Shown piece by piece: positions 3,158-64,000 of a stretch of 64,000 nt of DNA; the stretch's first letter is position 1, and the number at the start of each line of letters is the position of its first letter. Where the stretch lies: the NCBI GenBank assembly GCA_965238275.1, contig OZ250186.1, positions 768,001 through 832,000 of the forward strand. The letters run 5' to 3'. The translations under genes were made by a program, and so were the position numbers. Under the pieces are notes generated by a model that saw nothing but the letters and a program-made list of their open reading frames with translations, ran no database searches and was not told the DNA's origin. Source of the stretch: Nitrosopumilus sp. (GTDB taxonomy: Archaea; Thermoproteota; Nitrososphaeria; Nitrososphaerales; Nitrosopumilaceae).

Positions 3158-3255
3158 AAGTTAAGGTTATTCTTAAAAGTATTTAAAAAAAATACTTAGG
3201 GATCTGTTAAGTTACAGGTACCTACGGATATGGTGAGTTTTGCCAGACCGTACTG

Positions 3256-3681
3256 ATGAAACTGGCCCATCCCAAAATGACTCAGTTTGACATGAACAAC
3301 CGGATAACGGTCTGGCGCAAAGAATTCAACCTGACCGGTACCTATAAGATTCACGAAGCCGCGTCCAAACAGGCATTCCAGGCTGTAACCAAGTTTCACA
3401 AGTCAAACCGCGTAAAGCATGGAAAACGGATCTGGCGCAAGAAACAGATCATGCTCGGCAAGACCAAAACGTACAAGCACAACAGGTGGACCGAGCCATC
3501 CAGCTTGATGAGGCGCGGCAAGAAAACAATCAGGCTGCGCTCGCTGAATTCCTGTGGACGGCCAAAACTGCGAGACAGTGGAGCCGTATTCCTGCCGGGA
3601 CTTGGAGAAGCAAGACTGTGCATAAAGATCCCCGAAGGCAGGGTGCCGAACGTCCGAGTATTTGCTTTATGGAAGGAGTGA
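3256..3681 (+). pseudogene. tnpB: Truncated tnpB fragment, paralogue of the N-terminal part of 60659-62179
   Basis: MKLAHPKMTQFD...HEAASKQAFQAV...RWTEPS...KIPEGR closely matches the intact copy; RuvC half missing. Confidence 0.88.
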
Positions 3682-18750: not shown

Positions 18751-19973
18751 CATACAGACGCATGTCTGCATATAAATAAATGTACTTTTGATTTTGCCAA
18801 ACCAAGAAAAATTATAGCCGCTCCATCTCTGTATGTGACTTGGAAGATGTCGCCCACTCGTGCCTGCGCAGGCATCGGACACGGGTAAATTTCACGTATA
18901 TGGAACATCATTGCTGTTCAGGTTCTGTTAACTTATCAAGATCTGCCGACGGCTGTTAACCGTCGGGATCTTGTTGCTCGCCAACTGATCAGCATCGACT
19001 GAATTCTTCACCATGAGACTTATCCTCTCGTGGCTATCCATCTCCATCGCTTCATTTGCGGATCCTACGGGCACGACCTTTGTGCCTCGTGCAAGTATGT
19101 TGATACATGCATGCTTGTCACGGTCTACCGTGATGTTTCCGACAGGGCATCGCACCATTCTGCGCTCTTCGGTGATCATTGTTTCACCACATGCCGCGCA
19201 TTTCGAGCTTGTGCCCCTCGGATTTACTTTGATTGGAACCGTTCCATTCCACCTTGCCTTGTATTCAATCTGCCTTCCCAATTCGTAATAACCCCAATTC
19301 TTGCCGTTAAAATTGGCAGTCTTTCCCTTCCTGGCTTTCTTGTTCCACAGTTTTGTTATTCCTTCCAAATCTTCCAGAACCGGAACGTGTCCAGAGTCAA
19401 CTATCCTTTTGCTTGCCTTGTGTAGGATGTCATTAGTCCTGTTTTTTCCAATCCGACCGTATTTGCCTGCTATCTTTTTTCTTATCCTGTGGTCGTTTCT
19501 CTTGAAATTGGAGACCGTTTTCCTGCATTGCCGCTTGATCTTGCCGACTTTTGAAAGATCGTGCCTGACTATCCTGTCGTCCGTATCACACGTGGTGACG
19601 TTGTCAAAATTCATGTCTATCCCGACGTAACCCTGCGGAGTCCTTTCTTCGATTTTTTTGGAACATGCCAGTATCAGTTTGTTCGGAGTGACGGTGATTC
19701 CTCCCAGACTCATGCCATCTATCGTTTCCAACACGTAAGATGCCAGTTTGATTTTGATCTTCGTCTTGGCTTTCACTGACAGCTCCACGAACCCGTCGGA
19801 TATCTTGCATGCCTGGTTGTTGAACTTTAATATTTTTCCGGTGACGTAAGGGACTCCCGCGTTTTTGCCTTTTCGCTTGTTTGTACGCATTGGCTTCAGC
19901 ATGGATTTTGCGGAGTAGATTGCGGTCTGTTTGACTGACGCATACAAATCACTTTTCAGTTCGTGATATATTA

Positions 19974-42642: not shown

Positions 42643-43897
42643 TACCAGCAATGAAAAATTCATATCAAAATCGCTCATAAATTTTTGATGCAACAGCCGT
42701 CTCTGGAAATTACGAGGTGCGTTGAATTCCCAAATGACGAGAAAAGACGCCCCGAACATTAGACATTGCATGCTCTGGTGCGCCGTGCATGGCACACGCT
42801 AGGCGGCGTGGATCCGGTGCGGTTTGATGTCGTTCTAGATGGCCCTGTACAGAAAGTTTTCAACGACCAGATTCGGTTTTTTGTACCTCGTGTACCTGGT
42901 GATCGCCTCGCGGAGCATGCTCAGGCTGGTGTACGGCACGTCAAGCACTGCCCGCTTGAGATCCCTCCAGTACGTCTCTATGGCGCTCAGGTCCGGGGTC
43001 GCAGTTGGCAGGAAGACTATCTCCAGGCCGTCTGTGCCATCAAGCAGTTTGCGTATGTTTGATGCCCTGTGCTGGGAGGCCTTGTCCATGATCAGGCAGA
43101 TCTTCTTGAACCTGTACATCGCCTGCCTTAGAAAGTCCTCAAAGGTGTCCTTGGTAAACGCATCGTACTGCCGGAACATGCCCCTGCCGTCCGTGGTGAT
43201 TAGTCCATGGATTATCGTCTTGGAGTGTGAGCCGGTGTACGTGAAAAACGCCCGTATTCCCTTCCTGGTGTAGCCGCGTCTTCGCGGCCGCGCATCGGAG
43301 ATTACTATGGACTCGTCCTGTATCGCTACGACTGTTCCTTCACTGTTCTTTTTTTTATAAGCTCTGGCATCTCTTTTTGGAATTTCCTGATCTCCTCGTC
43401 AGGTGCCCTTCTTGCATGTTTTCCTACGGGAACCTTCTGGGAATAGCCCCACCCGCGCAGTATCTGGCGCACATATCCGAGTTCGTACCTTACTCCGGTC
43501 TTCTGTTGGATGTATTGCTGCATCTCCATGCCCGTCCAGACAGGTTTCCTGCATGCGGCCTTTCTGATCTTCTTCATGTCTGCCTTGCTCGCCTTGGTCG
43601 GCCTGCCGGAACGCGGCATGTTTCCCAGCCTGTCAAATCCGACTTCCAGGTAGCGCTCGTGCCACTTGTAGCCCCACGAGGCTGACTTTCCCAGGGATTT
43701 TGCAGAATCCCTCATGGTTATCCCGTCACGTTTGACTCTGATGATCAGCATCATGCGGTCCTTGGTATCGCAGTCTGTCTCAGCGGCGTATCTTTTCAAC
43801 ATCGTCTTGATCTTCATTGACTATGCTACGTGAAATAAGCATAATTTCACATGGAGTTAAAATATTTTACAATCACATCAATTTTTCATCTTTGGTA
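42643..43897 (-). mobile_element. IS630-family element
   Basis: TIRs TACCAGCAATGAAAAATT vs TACCAAAGATGAAAAATT; TA duplication within target CATG-TA-CATG. Confidence 0.9.
42835..43817 (-). CDS. IS630 transposase in two ORFs joined by a -1 frameshift at A8G (43348-43356)
   Basis: ORF A HTH with RSGRP; the -1 frame continues KNSEGTVVAIQDES…MDKA..H…P..PDLSAIE..W. Confidence 0.88.
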
Positions 43898-56751: not shown

Positions 56752-58368
56752 ATGGCATCGATTCAGCAGGGACCAAACGGCCCAGTTTTAGTCTTGAAGG
56801 AGAGCGCCCTGCAGCAGAAGGGCAGGGACGCCCAGCAGAACAACATTGCTGCTGCAAAACTGGTCGCAGAACTGGTAAAGAGCAGCCTGGGGCCACGGGG
56901 GCTTGACAAGATGCTGGTTGATTCGCTAGGAGATGTTACAATTACCAATGACGGTGCAACAATCCTCAAGGAGATCGATGCGCAACACCCTGCAGCCAAG
57001 ATGATGGTGGAGATATCAAAGGCCGTAGACAACGAGGTGGGCGACGGCACGACCTCTTCTGTAGTGTTTGGAGGAGCACTGCTTGCACATGCAGAGGAGC
57101 TGCTCAAAAAGGATGTGCACTCTTCAGTTATTGTAGAGGGATTTCAGGCAGCAGCAGACAAGACCCTTGAGATACTTGCCCAGCTTGCCAACACCATACA
57201 GCCTGACGATGCCCAATCACTGACAAAGATTGCAACTACAAGCATGCAGTCGAAGCTTATATCAGAAGACAGCAGCATACTGTCCGAGGTTGTAGTTGAT
57301 GCAATACTCAAGGTGGTTACAAAGAGGGGCGGCAACTACTCTGTCGACCTTGACAACATCAAGGTGGAAAAGAAGACCGGAGGCTCTATCCAGGACACCC
57401 GGGTGATAGGGGGGATAGTCTTGGACAAGGAGATAGTCCACAGCGGAATGCCCACCAAGATAGGCAATGCCAAGATTGCGCTTATCAACTCGGCACTTGA
57501 GATTGAAAAGACCGAGATGAGTTCGGAGATAAGAATCACCGATCCCACACAGATGCAGATGTTCCTTGAAGAGGAGAACCGGATGCTCAAGGGTATGGTT
57601 GAAAAGCTGCACCGCGTAGGAACAAACGTCCTGATATGCCAGAAGGGCATAGACGACATAGCACAGCACTATCTTGCCAAGAACGGCATCCTGGCGGTGC
57701 GCCGTGTAAAGGAGAGCGACATGACAAAGCTTACCAAGGCCACAGGCGGCCGCGTTATCAATAACCTGGATGATCTCTCAGAGGAGGACCTGGGACAGGC
57801 GGATCTCGTACACCAGAAGAAGATAGAGTCTGACAAGTGGGTCTTTGTAGAGGGATGTCACAACCCACAGTCTGTTACCCTGCTGATTCGCGGAGGCTCC
57901 CAGAGGGTCATCGACGAGGTAGACCGCTCCATCCATGACGCCCTGATGGTGGTAAAGGATGTAATTGAGACGCCCCAGATCGTCGCAGGCGGGGGCGCAC
58001 CCGAGGCGTTTGTTGCCACCCAGATCAGGGAATGGGCAGACCACTTTGACGGACGCGAGCAGCTTGCCATTAAAAAGTTTGCCGAGGCACTGGAGACCAT
58101 CCCATTAACCATTGCAGAGAATGCAGGCATGGATCCAATTGATACCATGGCCACGCTGCGCTCAAAACACACACAGGGAAACAAGTGGACCGGAATTGAT
58201 GCAAGGAACGGAAAGATCGCCGACATGTTTGCCATTGATGTAATAGAGCCCGTCGTGGTAAAGGAGCAGATAATAAAATCTGCAACAGAGTCGGCGTGCA
58301 TGATTCTCAGAATCGACGACGTGATTGCCGTGTCCGGCGGTCCTGGCGGCGGCGGACCCATGGGATAA
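56752..58368 (+). CDS. ths: Thermosome (group II chaperonin) subunit
   Basis: SLGPRG.DKM, TNDGATIL, GDGTTS, GGGAPE. Confidence 0.97.
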   Translation: MASIQQGPNGPVLVLKESALQQKGRDAQQNNIAAAKLVAELVKSSLGPRGLDKMLVDSLGDVTITNDGATILKEIDAQHPAAKMMVEISKAVDNEVGDGTTSSVVFGGALLAHAEELLKKDVHSSVIVEGFQAAADKTLEILAQLANTIQPDDAQSLTKIATTSMQSKLISEDSSILSEVVVDAILKVVTKRGGNYSVDLDNIKVEKKTGGSIQDTRVIGGIVLDKEIVHSGMPTKIGNAKIALINSALEIEKTEMSSEIRITDPTQMQMFLEEENRMLKGMVEKLHRVGTNVLICQKGIDDIAQHYLAKNGILAVRRVKESDMTKLTKATGGRVINNLDDLSEEDLGQADLVHQKKIESDKWVFVEGCHNPQSVTLLIRGGSQRVIDEVDRSIHDALMVVKDVIETPQIVAGGGAPEAFVATQIREWADHFDGREQLAIKKFAEALETIPLTIAENAGMDPIDTMATLRSKHTQGNKWTGIDARNGKIADMFAIDVIEPVVVKEQIIKSATESACMILRIDDVIAVSGGPGGGGPMG

Positions 58369-58399
58369 GATAATACCGTCCATACACACAATTCCATTA

Positions 58400-59260
58400 T
58401 TGCACCGAATCGGCGTGGATCTTGGTGGCACGAAAACCGAGGCCGTACTGCTCAACGAATATCTTGACGTGGTAAGAAGGACCCGCGCCCCCACGCCGGG
58501 GGACTATCCCGGCATTATCGACGTGATATCCCGCCTGGTCGCAGCCATGTCTGACGGCATACCCTCCTACTCTGTCGGCGTGTGCACGCCGGGCATCGCA
58601 CCTGACGATGCCGGGCTGGTAAGAAACAGCAACACCGGCTGCCTGATCGGCCGTCCCCTCAAGAAAGATCTCCAGGACGCCTTGGGCACGAAGATCGTGA
58701 TGGACAACGATGCCAACTGCTTTGCGCTGGCCGAGGCCCGAATGGGTGCCGCCCGGGGGTTTGGGCTGGTCTTTGGCGTGATCATGGGAACCGGCGTGGG
58801 AGGCGGGATTGTCATGGATGGAAAAATCCACCGCGGCCGAAACGGCATCGGGGGCGAATGGGGGCATCAGGTGCTGCACCGCGGCGGGCGTCCCTGCTGG
58901 TGCGGCGGGGCCGGATGCGCAGAGAGGTATCTCAGCGGGCCATCGCTGGAGGCAAGGTGGAAGGAGATTGCCGGCGCGGAAATGCCCATTCCGGAGATAG
59001 TGCGCAACCTCGACTCTGAACCCGGCAGGGCGTGGAGGGACGAGTTTCTAGAGGACTTTGGGTACGGCATTGCCGGCATCATAGACGTGCTGGATCCTGA
59101 CGCGATCGTGCTCGGCGGCGGACTGTCAAACATAGACTTTCTGTACACCCAAGGGGTCGAGTCCGTGCACAACAAGGTCTTCTCGGATCGCCTCGCTACC
59201 CCGATACTGAAAAATGCGCTAGGCGATTCTGCAGGCGTCATCGGGGCCTGCCTGATCTGA
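58400..59260 (+). CDS. ROK family sugar kinase (fructokinase/Mak-like)
   Basis: DLGGTK, NDANCFALAE, GTGVGGG, GEWGH, C.CG..GC.E. Confidence 0.92.
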   Translation: MHRIGVDLGGTKTEAVLLNEYLDVVRRTRAPTPGDYPGIIDVISRLVAAMSDGIPSYSVGVCTPGIAPDDAGLVRNSNTGCLIGRPLKKDLQDALGTKIVMDNDANCFALAEARMGAARGFGLVFGVIMGTGVGGGIVMDGKIHRGRNGIGGEWGHQVLHRGGRPCWCGGAGCAERYLSGPSLEARWKEIAGAEMPIPEIVRNLDSEPGRAWRDEFLEDFGYGIAGIIDVLDPDAIVLGGGLSNIDFLYTQGVESVHNKVFSDRLATPILKNALGDSAGVIGACLI

Positions 59261-59312
59261 GGCCGCGCATTCTTGGGGCGTGATTCTGGCACTGCCTATA
59301 GTGAAAAGCGAA

Positions 59313-60606
59313 AGACGCCATGTGTTGCCGTTGTAACGGTGATCATGGCATTTACCCTGTTGGACCTGAGAGTCGACACGAACTTGCCACTTATGATGGC
59401 GTGCGAAAGAGTGACTCAAGGTATGCGGATGGTCAAATACCGCTTTGACGGTGAATGGGAGTTTTCCGCTGGTCGGGTCCGATATGCTGCAAAGGAGGTG
59501 ATAGCACGTATTACATTGGAATAGACGTTCACAAAAAGAAATGCGTTTCAACCATCAAGGGCAAAACCAACAAGATACTAAGGCAGGCTGAATTTGACAA
59601 TAATGTCCGGGGAATAACCGAATTCGTCAAGATGATCCGCAAGGAAGGATACGTGCCGGCTACGGCCGTCTGCGAATCCACGGCCAACTACTGGATAGTC
59701 GTGCACGACATGCTCGAGGATGTCGGCATCAACACCCTGCTGGCCCACCCACACAACACGAAGATCATAACCGAAACCGTCTACAAAAACGACAAGGCAG
59801 ACTCGGCAAAGCTGGCAGACCTGTGCAGGCTGGACATGATCCCGGAGTCGTTCGTGGCCGACAAGCCCGCGCGGGACCTGCGCGAACTGACCCGCACCCG
59901 CCTGGGCATGAAGATGTACGCCACCGCCCCAAAGAACCGCATCCACGCGATCCTGGCCAAATACCCGCACGAGCAGCCCAAGGGAGGACTTTACGGGACC
60001 TGGACTCGAGTGGCTGCAGGCCGTGCCCCTGAGGGAGGTTGACCGCATGGCGGTGCAGTCGCATCTGGCCACCATCGATACCGTACTAAAGCAGGTGGCA
60101 AAATTTGAAAAAAAGGTAGCCGGGATTGCAATGAGCGACAGGAGGGCACAGCTGATCATGACCATACCCGGAATAGGCTACGTTACGGCAGTAACCATAC
60201 TTGCCGAAATAGTCGACCACAGCAGGTTTGCTGACGCCGAAAAGATGGCCTCATACGCCGGCCTGGTGCCAAAACACCACAACAGCGGGGAGACCGTCAG
60301 GACCGGCGGCATCACAAAACGCGGCTCCGTCTGGCTGCGCCGCGCCATGGTCGAGGCCGCGTTAGTTGCCGTCCAGCACGATGTCCGGATAGGGGCGCGC
60401 TACCAAAGACTGGCAACCCGCATAGGACCCATGAAGGCAAGGGTCGCCGTGGCCAGGCAGATGCTCGAATGGGTCTGGGAGATGCTTGAGCACAGCACCG
60501 AGTACAGGACCCAGGACAGGGATCTTGTAAGACGAAAATTCCAGAGAATAAAACGCATTGCCGACACACAACATCAACGGGTTTGGATGCCCGTAACACA
60601 TGGGAG
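59313..60606 (+). mobile_element. IS110-family element
   Basis: AG core at both junctions (59313-14, 60605-06); subterminal inverted repeat CCATGTGT/ACACATGG; removal restores the host TIR. Confidence 0.87.
59317..59480 (+). ncRNA. Candidate IS110 bridge RNA
   Basis: 5' hairpin, outer stem GGACCTGA/TCGGGTCC and two internal-loop hairpins; loop 1 strands ACACGAACT and GTGCGAAAG match the target, loop 2 ATGGGAG matches the element end. Confidence 0.75.
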
Positions 60607-60643
60607 TTCGTGCAATTTTTTGAGATCCTTTTTAAGAAAATAA
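59506..60643 (+). pseudogene. IS110 DEDD recombinase; ACG in place of the start codon and a frameshift near 60000
   Basis: YIGIDVHK, CEST, KNDKADS, IPGIG, YAGLVP....SG; SD-like GGAGGTGA upstream. Confidence 0.9.
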
Positions 60644-60658
60644 ATCCCAACTACAGGT

Positions 60659-62179
60659 ATGATTGTCAGCAAAATCATCAAGATAACACAATCTCGGGAA
60701 CTGTCACGCAAGATCGTGAAATGCTCCCGGGAAACAGACATCATTTACGACATGACGATCATGATGAAACTCACACATCCCAGAATCACGCAGTTTGATG
60801 TCAACAACCTGATAACAGGATGGCGCAGGGAATTCGGCCTGACCAACAGCGTCCGCATGCATGAGGCCGCCTCAAAACAGGCTTTCCAGGCGGTAGTCAA
60901 ATTCCGCAAGGCAAACCGGCTCAAGCACAACAAGCGCATCTGGCGCAAGAAACAGATCAAGCTGGGGAAAAAGAAGACGTACAGGCACAACAGGTGGACC
61001 GAGCCGTCTGGCCTGATGAGGCGCGGCAGGAAAACAACCAGGCTGCGCTCGCTGAATTCACGCGGAAAGCCAAAACTGCGGGACGACGGCACCGTATTTC
61101 TGCCCGGACTCGGGGAAGTAAGGCCGCGCGTAAAGATCCCGGAAGGCAGGCTCGTGTCATTCCAGATGATTGATGTTACGAAAAAAGTCACGCGCAGGAC
61201 GAAAGATTCTGACTGCGAATTCAGACTGTGCCTGCAAATCGAGGTTCCGGATCCCGAACCCGTGACAGACGGCGACGGCGACAGTTGCAAGGCCGGATTG
61301 GATCTTGGAGTCAGGCACCTTGCGGCAGTCGCAGACGAGCATGGGAATGAAAAACTGTACAATGTCCCGGGAGGCTGCAAGAGGCATGACGGCGACAGGA
61401 TTGATCAGCTGAAATCACTTAGATCAAGATGCCAGACAGGCTCCAGAAGATGGAAAGAGATCGGCCGCAAGATAGCGCATGAATTGAAAAATATATCAAA
61501 CAGGCAAAAACACAACGAGATCGACATTGCCAGGCGGATAACAAAAGGGCTGTCTGCGTTGTTCTTGGAAGACATGGATTTGACCAAGATGAGGCGATCC
61601 AACGGAGCAGCCTCAAAGACTGGGTTGAATCGCGAGATGGCATACTCTAGGATTGGAGAGTTTCGATGCCAGCTTGAATGGCAGATGAAAAAGAAAGGCG
61701 GCGTTGCAAAACGCGTGAAATACAGGTACACGAGCCAGAAATGCGCTGCCTGCCAAATAGTGGACAAGAAGTCCAGAAACGGCGAATCCTTTGTCTGCGT
61801 GTCCTGCGGGTGGTGCCACCATGCCGACAAGAACGCGGCAAAAAACATTTTGGATAATGACTGTCTCCATACGGAGGAGACTGGCGGCCAAGCCCACGGG
61901 AATCGTGGAGGCACCATTGCAGGTGTCGAGGTCGTCACAAGGCGCGAGGATCACGGATCGGATGGTTCTGGAATGAACGATTCGACAAGCCGGCTTGGAC
62001 CCGGCAACAAGGAGGATGATGTTGGAAGATCTGACAGAGCGCCGGAAAGAGCATCAGGACATGCTACAGAGAGATCTGTTTGCACGAACTTTCGCTCGCC
62101 GCTATACTACCTGAACGCACCTGATCGCACTATTGCATCTCGATCGTGGACGGGGGCTTGCTTGATATCGCGTACGTGA
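60659..62179 (+). CDS. tnpB: TnpB RNA-guided nuclease with intact RuvC triad
   Basis: GLDLG, LEDMD, TSQKCAAC..FVCVSCG, HADKNAAKNI; low-complexity tail reads through the element end. Confidence 0.92.
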   Translation: MIVSKIIKITQSRELSRKIVKCSRETDIIYDMTIMMKLTHPRITQFDVNNLITGWRREFGLTNSVRMHEAASKQAFQAVVKFRKANRLKHNKRIWRKKQIKLGKKKTYRHNRWTEPSGLMRRGRKTTRLRSLNSRGKPKLRDDGTVFLPGLGEVRPRVKIPEGRLVSFQMIDVTKKVTRRTKDSDCEFRLCLQIEVPDPEPVTDGDGDSCKAGLDLGVRHLAAVADEHGNEKLYNVPGGCKRHDGDRIDQLKSLRSRCQTGSRRWKEIGRKIAHELKNISNRQKHNEIDIARRITKGLSALFLEDMDLTKMRRSNGAASKTGLNREMAYSRIGEFRCQLEWQMKKKGGVAKRVKYRYTSQKCAACQIVDKKSRNGESFVCVSCGWCHHADKNAAKNILDNDCLHTEETGGQAHGNRGGTIAGVEVVTRREDHGSDGSGMNDSTSRLGPGNKEDDVGRSDRAPERASGHATERSVCTNFRSPLYYLNAPDRTIASRSWTGACLISRT

Positions 62180-63653
62180 CCAGCGTGACGTCCTCGATCT
62201 CGTTTGTAATGCGGTTGCTCATCCTCTCCAGGACATCGTGGGGCAGCCTGGTCCAGTCGGCAGTCATCGCATCTATGGAATCGACTGCCCTGATGATCAC
62301 TATGTTTCCGTACCTTCGCTCGTCTCCCACTACGCCTACGGCCCTGTCATCGCCCACTGTAGCATATGCCTGCCATATCCCCTCGTACAGTCCGGCCTTG
62401 ATCAGCTCGTCCTCGACTATCCTGCTTGCCCTCTTGGCAATGTTGAGCTTGGCAGGCGTTATCTCCCCGATGATTCTTACTGCCAGGCCGGGACCGGGAA
62501 ACGGATGTCTGGTGAGTATCTTCTCAGGAACCCCCAGAATCCCTGCAATCTTTCTCACCTCGTCCTTGTACAGATCCCTTAACGGCTCCAGGACATCCAG
62601 ATGCAGCCAGTCAGGCAGCCCTCCCACGTTGTGGTGAGTCTTTATCACGGCTGCAGGCCCCTTTGATACCCCGCTCTCGATGACGTCCGGATAGAGCGTG
62701 CCCTGCGCCAGCCATTTGAACGGACCGTTCTGTTCGGCAAACTCTGTAAAGACATGGACAAACTCCTCCCCTATTATCATCCTCTTCCTCTCCGGGTCAG
62801 TTACCCCCCTTAGCCTCTCCAGAAACCTCTCTGATGCCTCAATGGCAGTAAAGTTTACGGCAAAGTTGTCCCTGAACATCCTCTCCACCTCGGCCCCCTC
62901 GTCCATTCTCAGCAGGCCGTTATTCACAAAGACACACTTGAGCCTGTCCCCTATGGCCCTGTGGATGATGAGTGCTGCAACTGTCGAGTCGATGCCCCCG
63001 CTGACACCGCACAGCACGTTGCCTTCGATCCCCGCGATGCCCCTGACTGCCTCCTCTACGAACCCCTCCATGGTCCACTCCTGGCCTGCCCCGCACACAT
63101 CAAGTACAAAATTACCAAGAATTCTGGTTCCCTTCTCGGTGTGCGCCACCTCCGGATGGAACTGGATTCCGTATACGGGCCTCTCCTCTGAGACGATTGC
63201 AGCAGCCTTTACGTTATCTGTATGTCCTATAACCCTGAATCCCGGAGGTACTGCCTCTGCCTCGTCGCCGTGGCTCATCCACGCCTTTACAGAATCCCCT
63301 ATTCCTCCCAAAAGATCGCCTGCGTCATCTATCCTGAGTTGTGCCGAACCGTACTCCTTGTTTGCCCGCTTTACCCTTCCGCCGTGCCTGTCCACAATAA
63401 GCTGGTGCCCGTAGCAGATTCCAAGTATGGGAAGCCCCATCTCAAAGATCCCGTCGTCTGGCATGGGGGCATCCTGCTCGTATACGCTTGACGGACCGCC
63501 TGACAGAATGATTCCCTTGGGGTTGCGTTTTTTCAGCTCCTCGCAGGTAATGTCATAGGGAACCAGCTCTGCGTACACTGAGAGATCCCTTATCCTTCTG
63601 CAGATTAGGTGGCTGTACTGTGATCCAAAATCTAGCACCGTGATCCTGTCCAT
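62130..63653 (-). CDS. guaA: GMP synthase (glutamine-hydrolysing)
   Basis: LDFGSQY, GICYGHQ, QFHPEV, SGGIDS, QGTLYPDVIES, HPFPGPGL, SKPP.TIE. Confidence 0.97.
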   Translation of the reverse strand: MDRITVLDFGSQYSHLICRRIRDLSVYAELVPYDITCEELKKRNPKGIILSGGPSSVYEQDAPMPDDGIFEMGLPILGICYGHQLIVDRHGGRVKRANKEYGSAQLRIDDAGDLLGGIGDSVKAWMSHGDEAEAVPPGFRVIGHTDNVKAAAIVSEERPVYGIQFHPEVAHTEKGTRILGNFVLDVCGAGQEWTMEGFVEEAVRGIAGIEGNVLCGVSGGIDSTVAALIIHRAIGDRLKCVFVNNGLLRMDEGAEVERMFRDNFAVNFTAIEASERFLERLRGVTDPERKRMIIGEEFVHVFTEFAEQNGPFKWLAQGTLYPDVIESGVSKGPAAVIKTHHNVGGLPDWLHLDVLEPLRDLYKDEVRKIAGILGVPEKILTRHPFPGPGLAVRIIGEITPAKLNIAKRASRIVEDELIKAGLYEGIWQAYATVGDDRAVGVVGDERRYGNIVIIRAVDSIDAMTADWTRLPHDVLERMSNRITNEIEDVTLVTYAISSKPPSTIEMQ

Positions 63654-63660
63654 ACCATCA

Positions 63661-64000
63661 TCACTTGCCGGTCTTTTCAAGCATTCTTGTAAGCGACCAT
63701 TCTGCCGCATTGATAAGATCCCCTGTCCTGTCGCCTCCGCCATAATTCCTGATTACTATCTCACGGATGCCGTTCTTGTCGCTGTCCACCGTACACTCTA
63801 TGACCGACTCTGGTGAAATCTCCCCCTTTTTGGCCATGGCCTCGTCCTTTCTCCTTATGTCCCCGATGACCCTGTCCATGAAGAATGACCGGAACGGTGG
63901 CGTATCCTCCCCTACCCTGATGTGATCCTCAAGCGTGATGGAGAGCCGATCCTGCGTGATGCGCGCCCTTGCGATAAGATCCCCGCCGTTCCCCCTCTTG
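63661..64000 (-). CDS. Conserved hypothetical protein, 3' part (partial)
   Basis: Open from the window edge: …TPPFRSFFMDRVIG…IRNYG…INAAEWSL.RMLEK. Confidence 0.7.
   Translation of the reverse strand, partial: KRGNGGDLIARARITQDRLSITLEDHIRVGEDTPPFRSFFMDRVIGDIRRKDEAMAKKGEISPESVIECTVDSDKNGIREIVIRNYGGGDRTGDLINAAEWSLTRMLEKTGK

What the first reader, a model, noticed from the sequence alone, without database searches (positions are those of the whole stretch)
59297..62106. Intact TnpB carried by an IS630/mariner-type TIR element with a TA duplication (Fanzor-like architecture in an archaeon)
Seen: once the IS110 is removed in silico, tnpB is the only gene between 25-bp inverted repeats (inner 17 bp AGCGAAAGTTCGTGCAA perfect), each flanked by TA. 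There is no Y1 or serine TnpA. Established: prokaryotic TnpB normally rides in IS200/IS605 or IS607 elements, which lack TIRs and TSDs, while TIR/TSD hosts such as mariner are typical of eukaryotic Fanzors. Inference: this is a non-autonomous element mobilised in trans by an IS630-type DDE transposase. Its omega-RNA probably lies in the low-complexity 3' tail (about 61860-62104), and the guide may run into flanking DNA to recut excision sites.
Basis: partly seen in the sequence, partly recalled or inferred. Interest (0 to 1): 0.92.

Follow-up and report, generated by a model that had tools for sequence, protein, structure and literature searches.

The report
TnpB riding an IS630-type transposon
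An ammonia-oxidising archaeon carries about twenty copies of a small jumping gene that holds only an RNA-guided nuclease (TnpB) between mariner-like inverted ends, which looks borrowed from a neighbouring IS630 transposon; this pairing is rare in prokaryotes but has been described before.

Summary
With the IS110 removed, tnpB is the only gene between 25-bp inverted repeats (21/25 matching, inner 17 perfect), each flanked by TA. It is not a one-off. The genome has about 22 copies (78-99% identical) whose homology stops exactly at TA|TAG...CTA|TA. Three resolved empty sites carry exactly 2 nt where filled sites carry TA-element-TA. The complete genome has no Y1 or serine TnpA, but it has an IS630 family ("D", intact 337-aa HTH+DDE_3 transposase) whose TIRs match the tnpB element's as well as its own two ends match each other. 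A sister species has diverged tnpB subfamilies with the same type of ends. The 3' tail is a conserved structured RNA (59 pairs, 10 with compensatory changes) that includes the right TIR.

New details:
- The base 5' of the left TA is C at all 47 left ends seen, but at only 18 of 42 right ends. This suggests a TAM of C plus the TSD.
- The tnpB frame runs through the TIR and is closed by the TSD.
- The IS110 specifically targets this TIR.

Novelty is limited. IS630-linked TnpBs with symmetric ends, and solo TnpBs mobilised in trans, were reported by Altae-Tran et al. (2023).

The parts
59296..59296 (+). Target-derived C immediately 5' of the left TA; candidate TAM base
   Evidence: C at 25/25 left ends in the own genome, 20/20 in G017, 1/1 in G334 and 1/1 in a contig of run X1. 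The C is also present in all three homologous empty sites. Its function is inferred.
59297..59298 (.). Left TA (target-site duplication)
   Evidence: Every copy has TA outside TAG...CTA. Three empty sites have exactly 2 nt here.
59299..59314 (+). Outer 16 nt of the left TIR (TAGTGAAAAGCGAAAG)
59315..60606 (+). IS110-family element inserted in the left TIR. Its transposase is frameshifted (ORFs 59455-60042 and 60023-60643).
   Evidence: Pfam DEDD_Tnp_IS110 and Transposase_20. The insertion point is the same at 8 of 8 IS110 left junctions in the genome. Contigs of DNA runs carry 2 extra nt behind 59989 (table 4).
60607..60615 (+). Inner 9 nt of the left TIR (TTCGTGCAA)
   Evidence: It is contiguous with the outer part in the other copies.
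60629..60645 (+). A/T-rich TATA-like stretch 14-30 nt upstream of the tnpB ATG; possible archaeal promoter
   Evidence: Read from the sequence. Inference only.
60659..62179 (+). tnpB ORF: 482 codons inside the element plus 24 read-through codons and a stop in the flank
   Evidence: D215, E304, D390 and C362/C365/C380/C383 are invariant in 7 diverged homologues.
61851..62106 (+). Conserved structured RNA (candidate omega-RNA scaffold). It overlaps the tnpB 3' tail and includes the right TIR.
   Evidence: MFE -93.7 kcal/mol, z -3.1. RNAalifold on 16 copies from two species gives 59 pairs, 10 with compensatory changes. 99% of cells are paired, against 34-49% when partners are slid. Nucleotide diversity is 0.017-0.034 with no third-position excess at 61865-61954. 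No Rfam match. No transcript ends were mapped.
62080..62104 (-). Right TIR (reverse complement TAGCGGCGAGCGAAAGTTCGTGCAA)
62105..62106 (.). Right TA (target-site duplication). It supplies the first two bases of the tnpB stop codon when the next base is G or A.
62107..62122 (+). Right flank; predicted template of the guide, by analogy with TnpB and Fanzor
   Evidence: Inference only. RNA-library contigs cross this boundary in relatives, but contigs cannot show RNA ends.

Best explanation
The region 59297-62106 is one copy of a multi-copy, non-autonomous IS630-type insertion sequence (about 1.52 kb without the IS110). Its only cargo is an RNA-guided nuclease gene, tnpB, and the nuclease's own guide-RNA scaffold. 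The element has about 25-bp terminal inverted repeats and duplicates a TA on insertion. It encodes no transposase. The most likely mover is the 337-aa HTH+DDE_3 transposase of a co-resident IS630 family ('D'), acting in trans on ends that are as similar to its own as its own two ends are to each other. The 3' 250 nt of the element serve at once as the C-terminal tail of the TnpB ORF, as a conserved structured RNA (the omega-RNA scaffold) and, in the last 27 nt, as the right TIR. The TnpB frame is closed by the duplicated TA plus the first flanking base. Inferred: the RNA continues into the right flank as a guide. TnpB then recognises 5'-C-TA-[right flank], a sequence that exists at an empty or precisely excised site. 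It does not recognise the occupied site, where the base before the TA is the element's terminal A. A cut there would let the element be copied back by recombination after cut-and-paste excision. The window's copy has been hit in its left TIR by an IS110-family element that specifically targets this TIR. That insertion probably cripples mobilisation of this copy but leaves the tnpB promoter, ORF and RNA intact.
For: Shown:
- There are 16 unbroken full-length copies plus about 6 interrupted or slightly truncated ones, 78-98.9% identical. Homology ends exactly at TA|TAG and CTA|TA.
- Three of three resolvable empty sites (two paralogous, one orthologous in G017) have exactly 2 nt where filled sites have TA-element-TA.
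- Y1_Tnp and Resolvase give 0 hits in the own genome, with positive controls. Y1_Tnp gives 0 hits in 31 genomes including G017.
- There are 35 DDE_3 matches, 32 over the cut-off, in four DNA families. Only family D has TIRs like the tnpB element: 23/30 identical between the TnpB right end and the D1873 right end, against 23/30 between D1873's own left and right ends.
- Two family D copies encode an intact 337-aa protein. The one scanned has HTH_32, HTH_29 and DDE_3.
- In G017, tnpB subfamilies at about 65% DNA identity carry TATAC-type ends (TATACTGACGCGCAAAAGTT...), as IS630-D copies do in both genomes. A degraded copy in G334 has the same architecture.
- tnpB is under purifying selection: third-position diversity is about twice that of positions 1 and 2 in the core ORF. 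The frame is open to the element's end in 12 of 16 copies.
- RNA structure is supported.
- Flank asymmetry: C precedes the left TA at 47 of 47 left ends. The equivalent base at right ends is C in 10/24 (G000) and 8/18 (G017). At IS630-D ends it is C in 1/5 (G017).
Established knowledge:
- TnpB restores excised IS200/605 elements by cutting the donor joint (Meers et al. preprint 10.1101/2023.03.14.532601; only its abstract and its IS630 passages were seen).
- In Fanzors the 5' TSD is part of the TAM and the 3' TSD is part of the scaffold (PMC13565253 section 20; PMC10711439 section 28).
Against: - None of the three empty sites actually reads TA (they read AA, CA and AG). They come from homologues 80-91% identical, so the 2-bp duplication rests on spacing, not on an identical pre-insertion site.
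- At the window's own locus the G017 intergenic region has a 9-nt indel, and the exact junction cannot be read.
- No two copies are identical (maximum 98.9%), so recent transposition is not shown.
- TIR identity to IS630-D is about 75%, not near-identity. Trans-mobilisation is inferred, not observed.
- No RNA ends, guide or cleavage were observed. RNA-library data were only assembled contigs of relatives.
- Part of the left-C signal could be the transposase's own CTAG-like preference: C is enriched at other ends of this TIR superfamily too, at 6/10 and 3/4.
- Three of the 20 G017 'left ends' were classed only by their inner sequence, without checking for tnpB. Two pairs share flanks, so 18 flanks are independent.
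Confidence: 0.85

Rival explanations
1. The element and its mobilisation are as above, but the invariant C at the left flank is the target preference of the IS630 transposase (IS630 itself prefers CTAG; recalled, not from a call). It would then not be a TnpB TAM, and TnpB would not do donor-site homing in this element. For example, the DDE excision already leaves a break, so the nuclease may serve another role or none.
For: C is enriched next to TA at other ends of this TIR superfamily: tnpB right ends 18/42, 'TAATTAAT'-type ends 6/10 and MITE ends 3/4. The background C frequency is 0.264. The 2026 review argues that a DDE excision already makes the break that a homing nuclease would make (PMC13565253 section 20).
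Against: A symmetric TA-targeting transposase cannot by itself fix the C to one named end of the element. Left ends show 47/47 against 18/42 at right ends, and IS630-D's own ends show 1/5 (G017) and no C bias at four G000 left ends (a, t, c, g). tnpB is under purifying selection across subfamilies and species. The RNA is conserved with covariation.
Confidence: 0.3
2. The TIRs are a relic. The tnpB elements descend from an IS630 derivative but are no longer moved by IS630-D. Either they are immobile, or they are moved by another of the genome's DDE families or by an unknown route.
For: No identical copies exist (maximum 98.9%). TIR identity to IS630-D is only about 75%. Only 3-4 IS630-D copies are present, against about 22 tnpB elements.
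Against: The other three IS630 families have unrelated TIRs by inspection. Both TATAG- and TATAC-type ends occur in parallel among tnpB elements and IS630-D copies in two species. Several subfamilies have each multiplied. Copies occupy different sites in G000, G017 and G334.
Confidence: 0.08
3. One-off capture: an IS605/IS607-type tnpB landed inside an IS630 MITE, and the TIRs have nothing to do with tnpB.
For: TnpB scores best against IS607-type and generic TnpB models (NCBIfam IS607_TnpB 91.5 bits, below its cut-off), so the gene's ancestry lies in those families.
Against: All of about 22 copies, plus diverged subfamilies in G017 and a copy in G334, share the same outer boundaries. Only 43 nt separate the left TIR from the ATG. 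The ORF and RNA run into and through the right TIR, leaving no room for internal IS605/IS607 ends. There is no Y1 or serine enzyme in the genome.
Confidence: 0.03

Closest known systems
IS630-associated TnpBs ('DDE-6' large branch) and solo TnpBs with DDE-type ends, Altae-Tran et al. 2023 PNAS (PMC10691335; passages read)
   Same: A prokaryotic TnpB sits inside an element with symmetric (inverted) ends of an IS630-family transposon. The TnpB 3' end lies within 250 bp of the transposon end. Solo TnpBs carry ends like those of transposase-bearing elements and are inferred to be mobilised in trans.
   Different: DDE-6 is described with the IS630 transposase and a separate HTH protein in the same element; here the element never carries a transposase in any copy seen. 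The passages read do not mention the TSD-completed stop codon, the left-specific C or a thaumarchaeal host. Whether these sequences are in that paper's data set could not be checked, because supplements are closed.
Fanzor1 / Fanzor2* in eukaryotic cut-and-paste transposons such as Mariner/Tc1 (Bao & Jurka 2013, listing only; Yoon et al. 2023 PMC10711439, section 28 read; review PMC13565253, section 20 read)
   Same: A TnpB-family nuclease is carried between TIRs with a TSD. The RNA scaffold overlaps the TIR. In Fanzors the 5' TSD contributes to the TAM and the 3' TSD to the scaffold, which is the logic proposed here.
   Different: The host is an archaeon (thermosome, ROK and guaA flanks; the record title of the sister genome names Nitrosopumilus). 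The protein is 482 aa and TnpB-like. By sequence it matches ISDra2 TnpB (E 1.5e-15) about as well as the mimivirus TnpB-like protein L79 (E 1.9e-16). No phylogeny was made.
IS200/IS605 (IS1341-type, tnpB-only) and IS607 elements
   Same: The cargo is a tnpB with a 3'-overlapping omega-RNA. tnpB-only copies greatly outnumber any transposase gene.
   Different: Those families have no TIRs and no TSD, and they need a Y1 HUH or serine TnpA. Here TIRs and a 2-bp TSD are present, and neither enzyme is encoded in the genome.
IS630 family / IS630-derived MITEs
   Same: The TIRs begin TA|TAG or TA|TAC, TA is duplicated, and there is dependence on an HTH+DDE_3 transposase. About 150-bp MITEs with the same ends exist in G017.
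   Different: This non-autonomous derivative carries a full-length, selected protein gene and a structured RNA instead of being a short MITE.
IS1111/IS110 elements that target TIRs of other transposons (IS4321/IS5075 into Tn21-family IRs: title in the reference list of PMC11187229; seekRNA: abstract of the same paper)
   Same: The IS110-family element in the window sits at one fixed position of the IS630-D-type TIR in 8 of 8 junctions.
   Different: The target is a different TIR family, in an archaeon. The guide RNA of this IS110 was not analysed.

Membership tests
TnpB (OMEGA RNA-guided nuclease) | RuvC-like D-E-D catalytic triad and CxxC...CxxC zinc finger | tested here: met
   D215, E304, D390 and C362, C365, C380, C383 are invariant in an alignment of 7 homologues at 45-79% identity.
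TnpB (OMEGA RNA-guided nuclease) | Matches the curated family models above their cut-offs | tested here: met
   Pfam OrfB_IS605 44.7 bits (cut-off 30.5) and Cas12f1-like_TNB 56.2 (cut-off 26.3). NCBIfam guided_TnpB 115.1 (cut-off 100). PDB profile hit to ISDra2 TnpB, E 1.5e-15.
TnpB (OMEGA RNA-guided nuclease) | Structured omega-RNA overlapping the 3' end of the ORF and reaching the transposon's right end | tested here: met
   59 consensus pairs, 10 with compensatory changes. 99% of cells are paired, against 34-49% in slid controls. Expression and RNA ends were not shown.
TnpB (OMEGA RNA-guided nuclease) | Guide taken from the right flank; TAM-dependent DNA cleavage | not testable with these tools
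   There is only indirect evidence: an invariant C-TA at 47/47 left junctions.
IS630 family (non-autonomous derivative) | Terminal inverted repeats shared with an IS630 transposase-bearing element | tested here: met
   The tnpB element's ends match IS630-D (D1873) ends at 21-23/30, and D1873's own left and right ends match at 23/30. TATAC-type ends are shared by G017 tnpB elements and IS630-D copies.
IS630 family (non-autonomous derivative) | Duplication of a TA target dinucleotide | tested here: met
   TA flanks both ends of all copies. Three of three resolved empty sites have exactly 2 nt. Caveat: those 2 nt read AA, CA and AG in the diverged homologues. A fourth site (the window locus against G017) is unresolved.
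IS630 family (non-autonomous derivative) | HTH + DDE_3 transposase | tested here: met
   It is not in the element, but it is present in trans. Two intact 337-aa ORFs were found; the one scanned has HTH_32, HTH_29 and DDE_3. Action on these ends was not tested.
IS200/IS605 | Y1 HUH TnpA in the element or the genome | tested here: not met
   PF01797 gives 0 hits in the own genome (99.92% complete, 1 contig); the control rang in 6 of 14 genomes. It gives 0 hits in 31 relatives.
IS200/IS605 | No TIRs, no TSD, subterminal hairpins | tested here: not met
   25-bp TIRs and a 2-bp TSD are present.
IS607 | Serine recombinase TnpA | tested here: not met
   PF00239 gives 0 hits in the own genome; the control rang in 12 of 14 genomes.
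Fanzor | Encoded in a eukaryote or a eukaryotic virus | tested here: not met
   The chromosomal context is archaeal (thermosome, ROK, guaA). The sister genome's record is titled Nitrosopumilus sp.. No relatives were found in viral contigs.
Fanzor | Phylogenetic placement within the Fanzor clades and their structural insertions | not tested
   Only PDB profile hits are available: mimivirus TnpB-like L79 at E 1.9e-16 and ISDra2 TnpB at E 1.5e-15.
DDE-6 branch of Altae-Tran 2023 | IS630 transposase plus a separate HTH protein in the same element | tested here: not met
   All copies are about 1.5 kb with tnpB as the only gene.
DDE-6 branch of Altae-Tran 2023 | Placement in that branch of the TnpB tree | not testable with these tools

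The most novel reading that the evidence does not exclude
A TnpB lineage in Nitrosopumilaceae archaea has become fully co-adapted to DDE cut-and-paste transposons, independently of eukaryotic Fanzors. Its TAM would be the target C plus the duplicated TA. The nuclease could then tell an empty or precisely excised site (C-TA-flank) from an occupied one (A-TA-flank). Its guide-RNA scaffold is built partly from the transposase-binding TIR. Its reading frame is closed by the target-site duplication. The lineage may also have switched carrier type, because a sister genus carries distant relatives between unrelated 26-bp TIRs with 7-bp duplications. That would make it a tractable prokaryotic model for how RNA-guided homing works together with TSD-forming transposases, the step thought to lead to Fanzor1.
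Probability: 0.4. Interest if true: 0.75.

Novelty: new member of a known kind. Interest (0 to 1): 0.55.

Why it matters
Prokaryotic TnpBs on DDE transposons are rare. The 2026 review (PMC13565253, section 20) treats them as a puzzle for two reasons: a cut-and-paste excision already leaves a break, and a TSD constrains the TAM and the scaffold. This genome offers an unusually clean natural data set. It has about 22 copies, plus diverged subfamilies in a sister species, the putative helper transposase, MITEs and empty sites. From these data a concrete and cheap prediction follows: the TAM is C-TA, the guide starts at or just after the TSD, and the occupied site is protected by the element's terminal A. 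If that is confirmed, it would show in a prokaryote the same solution reported for Fanzors. It would also give a compact (about 400-aa core) nuclease with a short TAM. If the C turns out to be only transposase preference, the locus is an ordinary example of an already published association.

Tried and rejected
- Exact empty site at the window locus. G017 has ROK and guaA only 23 nt apart, so the element is absent there, but a 9-nt indel prevents reading the junction. Flank searches for three further copies (L003, L005, L009) in G017 and four other genomes gave no junction-spanning match. Flanks of six G017 copies searched against the own genome gave none either.
- Sequencing runs. Only assembled contigs were available. 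The RNA-library contigs are 90-95% relatives of the element that run into other flanks, and they cannot show RNA ends or expression. No contig joins 59296 to 62107. This is recorded as no evidence either way.
- Rfam: no family matches 59200-62300 at E up to 1.
- Viral contigs: no relative found.
- Genome-contig scan: it found only G017's record, because the peptide patterns used were very specific.
- Partner transposase for the genus-g30 TIR type: not found in G095 at up to 3 mismatches.
- Fuzzy left-end scan. Of 44 matches, 23 continue into the inner TIR or into an insertion at the standard point, and these were kept. The other 21 were dropped: they have 3-4 mismatches and no tnpB behind them, one is the IS630-D end at 1874348, and the two that look TIR-like (143916 and 490292, flank base A) have no tnpB or transposase.
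- MITE or standalone-RNA versions in the own genome: only 5'-truncated fragments were found.
- Not attempted: a covariance-model search, a structure prediction, a complex prediction and a phylogeny against Fanzors.
- Print search. 'TnpB' together with 'Thaumarchaeo' returned 1 unrelated paper. A five-term search (TnpB, Nitrosopumil, Thaumarchaeo, Cenarchaeum, sponge symbiont; at least 2 terms) listed 15 of 1,306 papers, none of which contains TnpB.


Full report
**What is there**

The window is bases 768001-832000 of a single-contig, 2,216,668-bp genome with 52.7% G+C. Between a ROK-family gene (58325-59260) and guaA (62130-63743, minus strand; Pfam) lies the reported structure:
- CACTGCC-TA, then TAGTGAAAAGCGAAAG (59299-59314);
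- a 1292-bp IS110-family element (59315-60606);
- TTCGTGCAA (60607-60615), 43 nt of A/T-rich leader, then a tnpB ORF from 60659;
- at the far end, TTGCACGAACTTTCGCTCGCCGCTA-TA (62080-62106).

The repeat finder reports the outer arms (pair I2). With the IS110 removed, left and right repeats match at 21 of 25 positions, the inner 17 perfectly. The IS110 transposase is split between two frames. Contigs of DNA runs that hold related copies carry two extra bases behind 59989 (table 4), which is the shift needed to join the two frames. TnpB has both Pfam domains and the NCBIfam guided_TnpB model above their cut-offs. It matches ISDra2 TnpB in the PDB. Its D-E-D triad and four zinc-finger cysteines are intact.

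**It is a family, and its limits are the TIRs**

The tnpB part matches 34 places in the own genome. A local BLAST resolves these into 16 unbroken full-length copies (including the window's), about 6 copies interrupted by other insertions or slightly truncated, and some fragments. Pairwise identity is 78-98.9%, and no two copies are identical. In every copy the similarity starts at TATAG and ends at CTATA, and the flanks are unrelated. The 17-nt core occurs 41 times at up to 2 mismatches, against 1 for the reversed control. Only 43 nt separate the left TIR from the ATG, and the ORF runs through the right TIR.

**Target duplication**

TA is part of both the repeat and the flank, so only empty sites can decide the question. 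Three could be read:
- The copy at 883619-891004 sits in a repeated sequence whose two other copies read ...ATATTC-AA-CGCA..., where the filled site reads ...ATATTC-TA[element]TA-CGCA....
- The copy at 428238-426719 has an orthologous empty site in sister species G017 reading ...GCTGAC-CA-CCATAGG, against ...GCTGAC-TA[element]TA-CAATAGG.
- The copy at 2140905-2139391 aligns without gaps to a paralogue that has AG at that place.

All three have exactly two bases at the junction. This fits a 2-bp duplication and excludes zero. None of the three reads TA itself, because they come from homologues only 80-91% identical. At the window's own locus G017 has the two flanking genes 23 nt apart, so the element is absent there, but a 9-nt indel hides the junction. 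Four other attempts gave no junction.

**Who moves it**

The genome (99.92% complete) has no match to Y1_Tnp or Resolvase, although both searches rang in control genomes. Y1_Tnp is also missing from all 31 genomes of the relatives draw, including G017. There are 35 DDE_3 matches, 32 above the cut-off, falling into four DNA families. Three families have unrelated ends. Family D (about 1.1 kb) has ends TA|TAGTGACGCGCAAAAGTTTTGACAA and TA|TAGTGGCGATCAAAAGTTCTTGCAA, or TATAC variants of these. Over 30 nt, the tnpB element's right end matches D1873's right end at 23 positions, the same as D1873's own left end against its right end. Two D copies encode an intact 337-aa protein. The one scanned has HTH_32/HTH_29 and DDE_3 domains.

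**The same arrangement in relatives**

G017 has at least two further tnpB subfamilies, at about 65% DNA identity and 45-56% protein identity to the window's. They are bounded by TATAC(T/C)GACGCGCAAAAGTT or TATAGTGAC... ends. G017 also has 1105-bp IS630-D elements and about 150-bp MITEs with such ends. In total it has 59 TIR matches, against 1 for the control. A third genome of the genus, G334, has one degraded copy with the same ends. The clade is narrow:
- 3 of 151 genomes searched in the genus;
- 2 of 201 drawn from the family at clade-level scores;
- 22 protein clusters at 41% identity or more in the large protein collection, then a drop to 33% or less.

**The 3' tail**

The tnpB frame is open to the very end of the element in 12 of 16 full-length copies. 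It reads ...TTT CGC TCG CCG CTA TA|N, so the stop codon is the duplicated TA plus the first flank base:
- Seven copies stop there (flank base G or A).
- Five, including the window's, read on into the flank.
- One ends earlier after a 44-nt insertion.
- Three are broken.

In the core ORF, diversity among copies at third codon positions is about twice that at positions 1 and 2. At 61865-61954 diversity is 0.017-0.034 at all three positions, which indicates a constraint on the nucleotides themselves. The window's last 257 nt fold at -93.7 kcal/mol, z = -3.1. No Rfam family matches.

RNAalifold on ten own-genome and six G017 copies gives 59 pairs, 10 of them with compensatory changes. On that structure 99% of cells pair, against 34-49% when partners are slid by 1-3 columns, and 54 cells have double changes, against 9 or fewer. 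Much of that covariation is one split between two species, so it counts few independent events. Three helices use the right TIR. For example, GAAAG at 62045-62049 pairs with CTTTC at 62089-62093. This is what an omega-RNA scaffold ending at the transposon end should look like. Expression, ends and guide were not observed, because the available RNA libraries exist only as contigs of relatives.

**An asymmetry that points to a TAM**

The base just outside the left TA is C at every left end seen:
- 25 of 25 left ends in the own genome;
- 20 of 20 in G017 (18 distinct flanks);
- the single G334 copy;
- one contig of run X1.

The three empty sites also have that C, so it belongs to the target. The equivalent base at right ends is C in 10 of 24 (own genome) and 8 of 18 (G017). 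At IS630-D ends it is C in 1 of 5 in G017, and the four G000 left ends read a, t, c, g. Genome C content is 0.264.

A transposase that attacks a symmetric TA may prefer CTAG-like sites, and the roughly 45% C at other ends suggests it does. It cannot, however, tie the C to one named end. The simplest reading is that TnpB needs C-TA 5' of the flank-derived guide. In Fanzors the 5' TSD is part of the TAM and the 3' TSD part of the scaffold (PMC13565253 section 20; PMC10711439 section 28). At an occupied site the base before the right TA is the element's last A, so the same requirement would spare occupied sites. This step is inference.

**Comparison with what is known**

Altae-Tran et al. 2023 (passages read) report several points:
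- a 'DDE-6' branch of TnpBs associated with IS630 transposases and an HTH protein, with symmetric ends;
- TnpB 3' ends within 250 bp of the transposon end;
- solo TnpBs whose ends are nearly identical to those of transposase-bearing systems, implying mobilisation in trans.

The 2026 review repeats this and calls such associations rare. The kind is therefore known. What this locus adds is a well-populated archaeal example with the helper family, MITEs and empty sites in hand, together with three undescribed details: the left-specific C, the TSD-completed stop codon and TIR-embedded RNA helices. I could not check the supplements to see whether these sequences are already in that data set.

**Verdict**

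Novelty is 'new member of a known kind', and interest is moderate.

Noticed in passing
window 59315-60606; own genome 2149863-2148251, 504356-502652, 1289009-1289808, and left junctions at 1926102, 1920768, 1089473, 1091319: The IS110-family element is site-specific for the IS630-D-type TIR. All 8 left junctions lie after ...(A/G)AAAG, and the 4 right junctions that can be read are followed by TT(C/T)GTGCA. The hit TIRs belong to a tnpB element, a diverged tnpB element or an IS630-D. This recalls IS4321/IS5075 targeting Tn21 inverted repeats.
   Followed up: partly
window about 59989: Contigs of DNA runs X9 and X11 that cover IS110 relatives have TG inserted behind 59989. The window copy lacks these 2 nt, which accounts for the split transposase frame (table 4).
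   Followed up: partly
L169, L173, L174 (G095); L177, L178, L171 (G164): In another genus of the same family, distant TnpBs (about 180 bits to the clade profile) sit in 1.41-1.47-kb solo elements. These have perfect 26-bp TIRs of a different type (GGGAATTATATCGTTAAGTAAACACG) and 7-bp target duplications such as TGACGAC and CCCTCCC. No transposase-bearing partner with these ends was found in G095.
   Followed up: partly
own genome 1873253-1874348 and 2123842-2124945 against window 62060-62106: The IS630-D transposase ORF and the tnpB ORF enter the right TIR in the same reading frame (...CKNF* against ...CTNFRSPL*). In tnpB elements the TGA of the IS630 TIR is replaced by CGC. This could be a relic of descent from an IS630-D element, or a 1-in-3 coincidence.
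   Followed up: no
G017 820977-821130 and 1710257-1710408 (L116/L117, L139): There are MITEs of about 150 bp bounded by the same TIR type.
   Followed up: no
left flanks of all copies: The position three bases 5' of the left TA is T in 15 of 19 own-genome copies but A or G in 15 of 18 G017 copies. These were counted by eye. This may be subfamily-specific extension of the TAM.
   Followed up: no
own genome 35138-35483 and 193617-194030: These are 5'-truncated fragments that keep only the structured-RNA region and the right TIR. They have no left TIR, so they are not MITEs. They could still supply guides in trans.
   Followed up: partly
window 3254-3642: A decayed 389-nt fragment of the same tnpB family, 78% identical.
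   Followed up: no
window 19096-19290 (-) and 42919-43323 (-): The window contains a second, unrelated tnpB (402-aa frame) and a copy of IS630 family B. The genome is very rich in insertion sequences, with at least 32 IS630-type transposase matches and several other multi-copy repeats.
   Followed up: no
own genome 883619-891004: This tnpB element is itself interrupted by a 5.8-kb insertion that includes an IS630 family A copy. It had inserted at the left edge of another TnpB-type gene that begins MKSFKFRLY.
   Followed up: no
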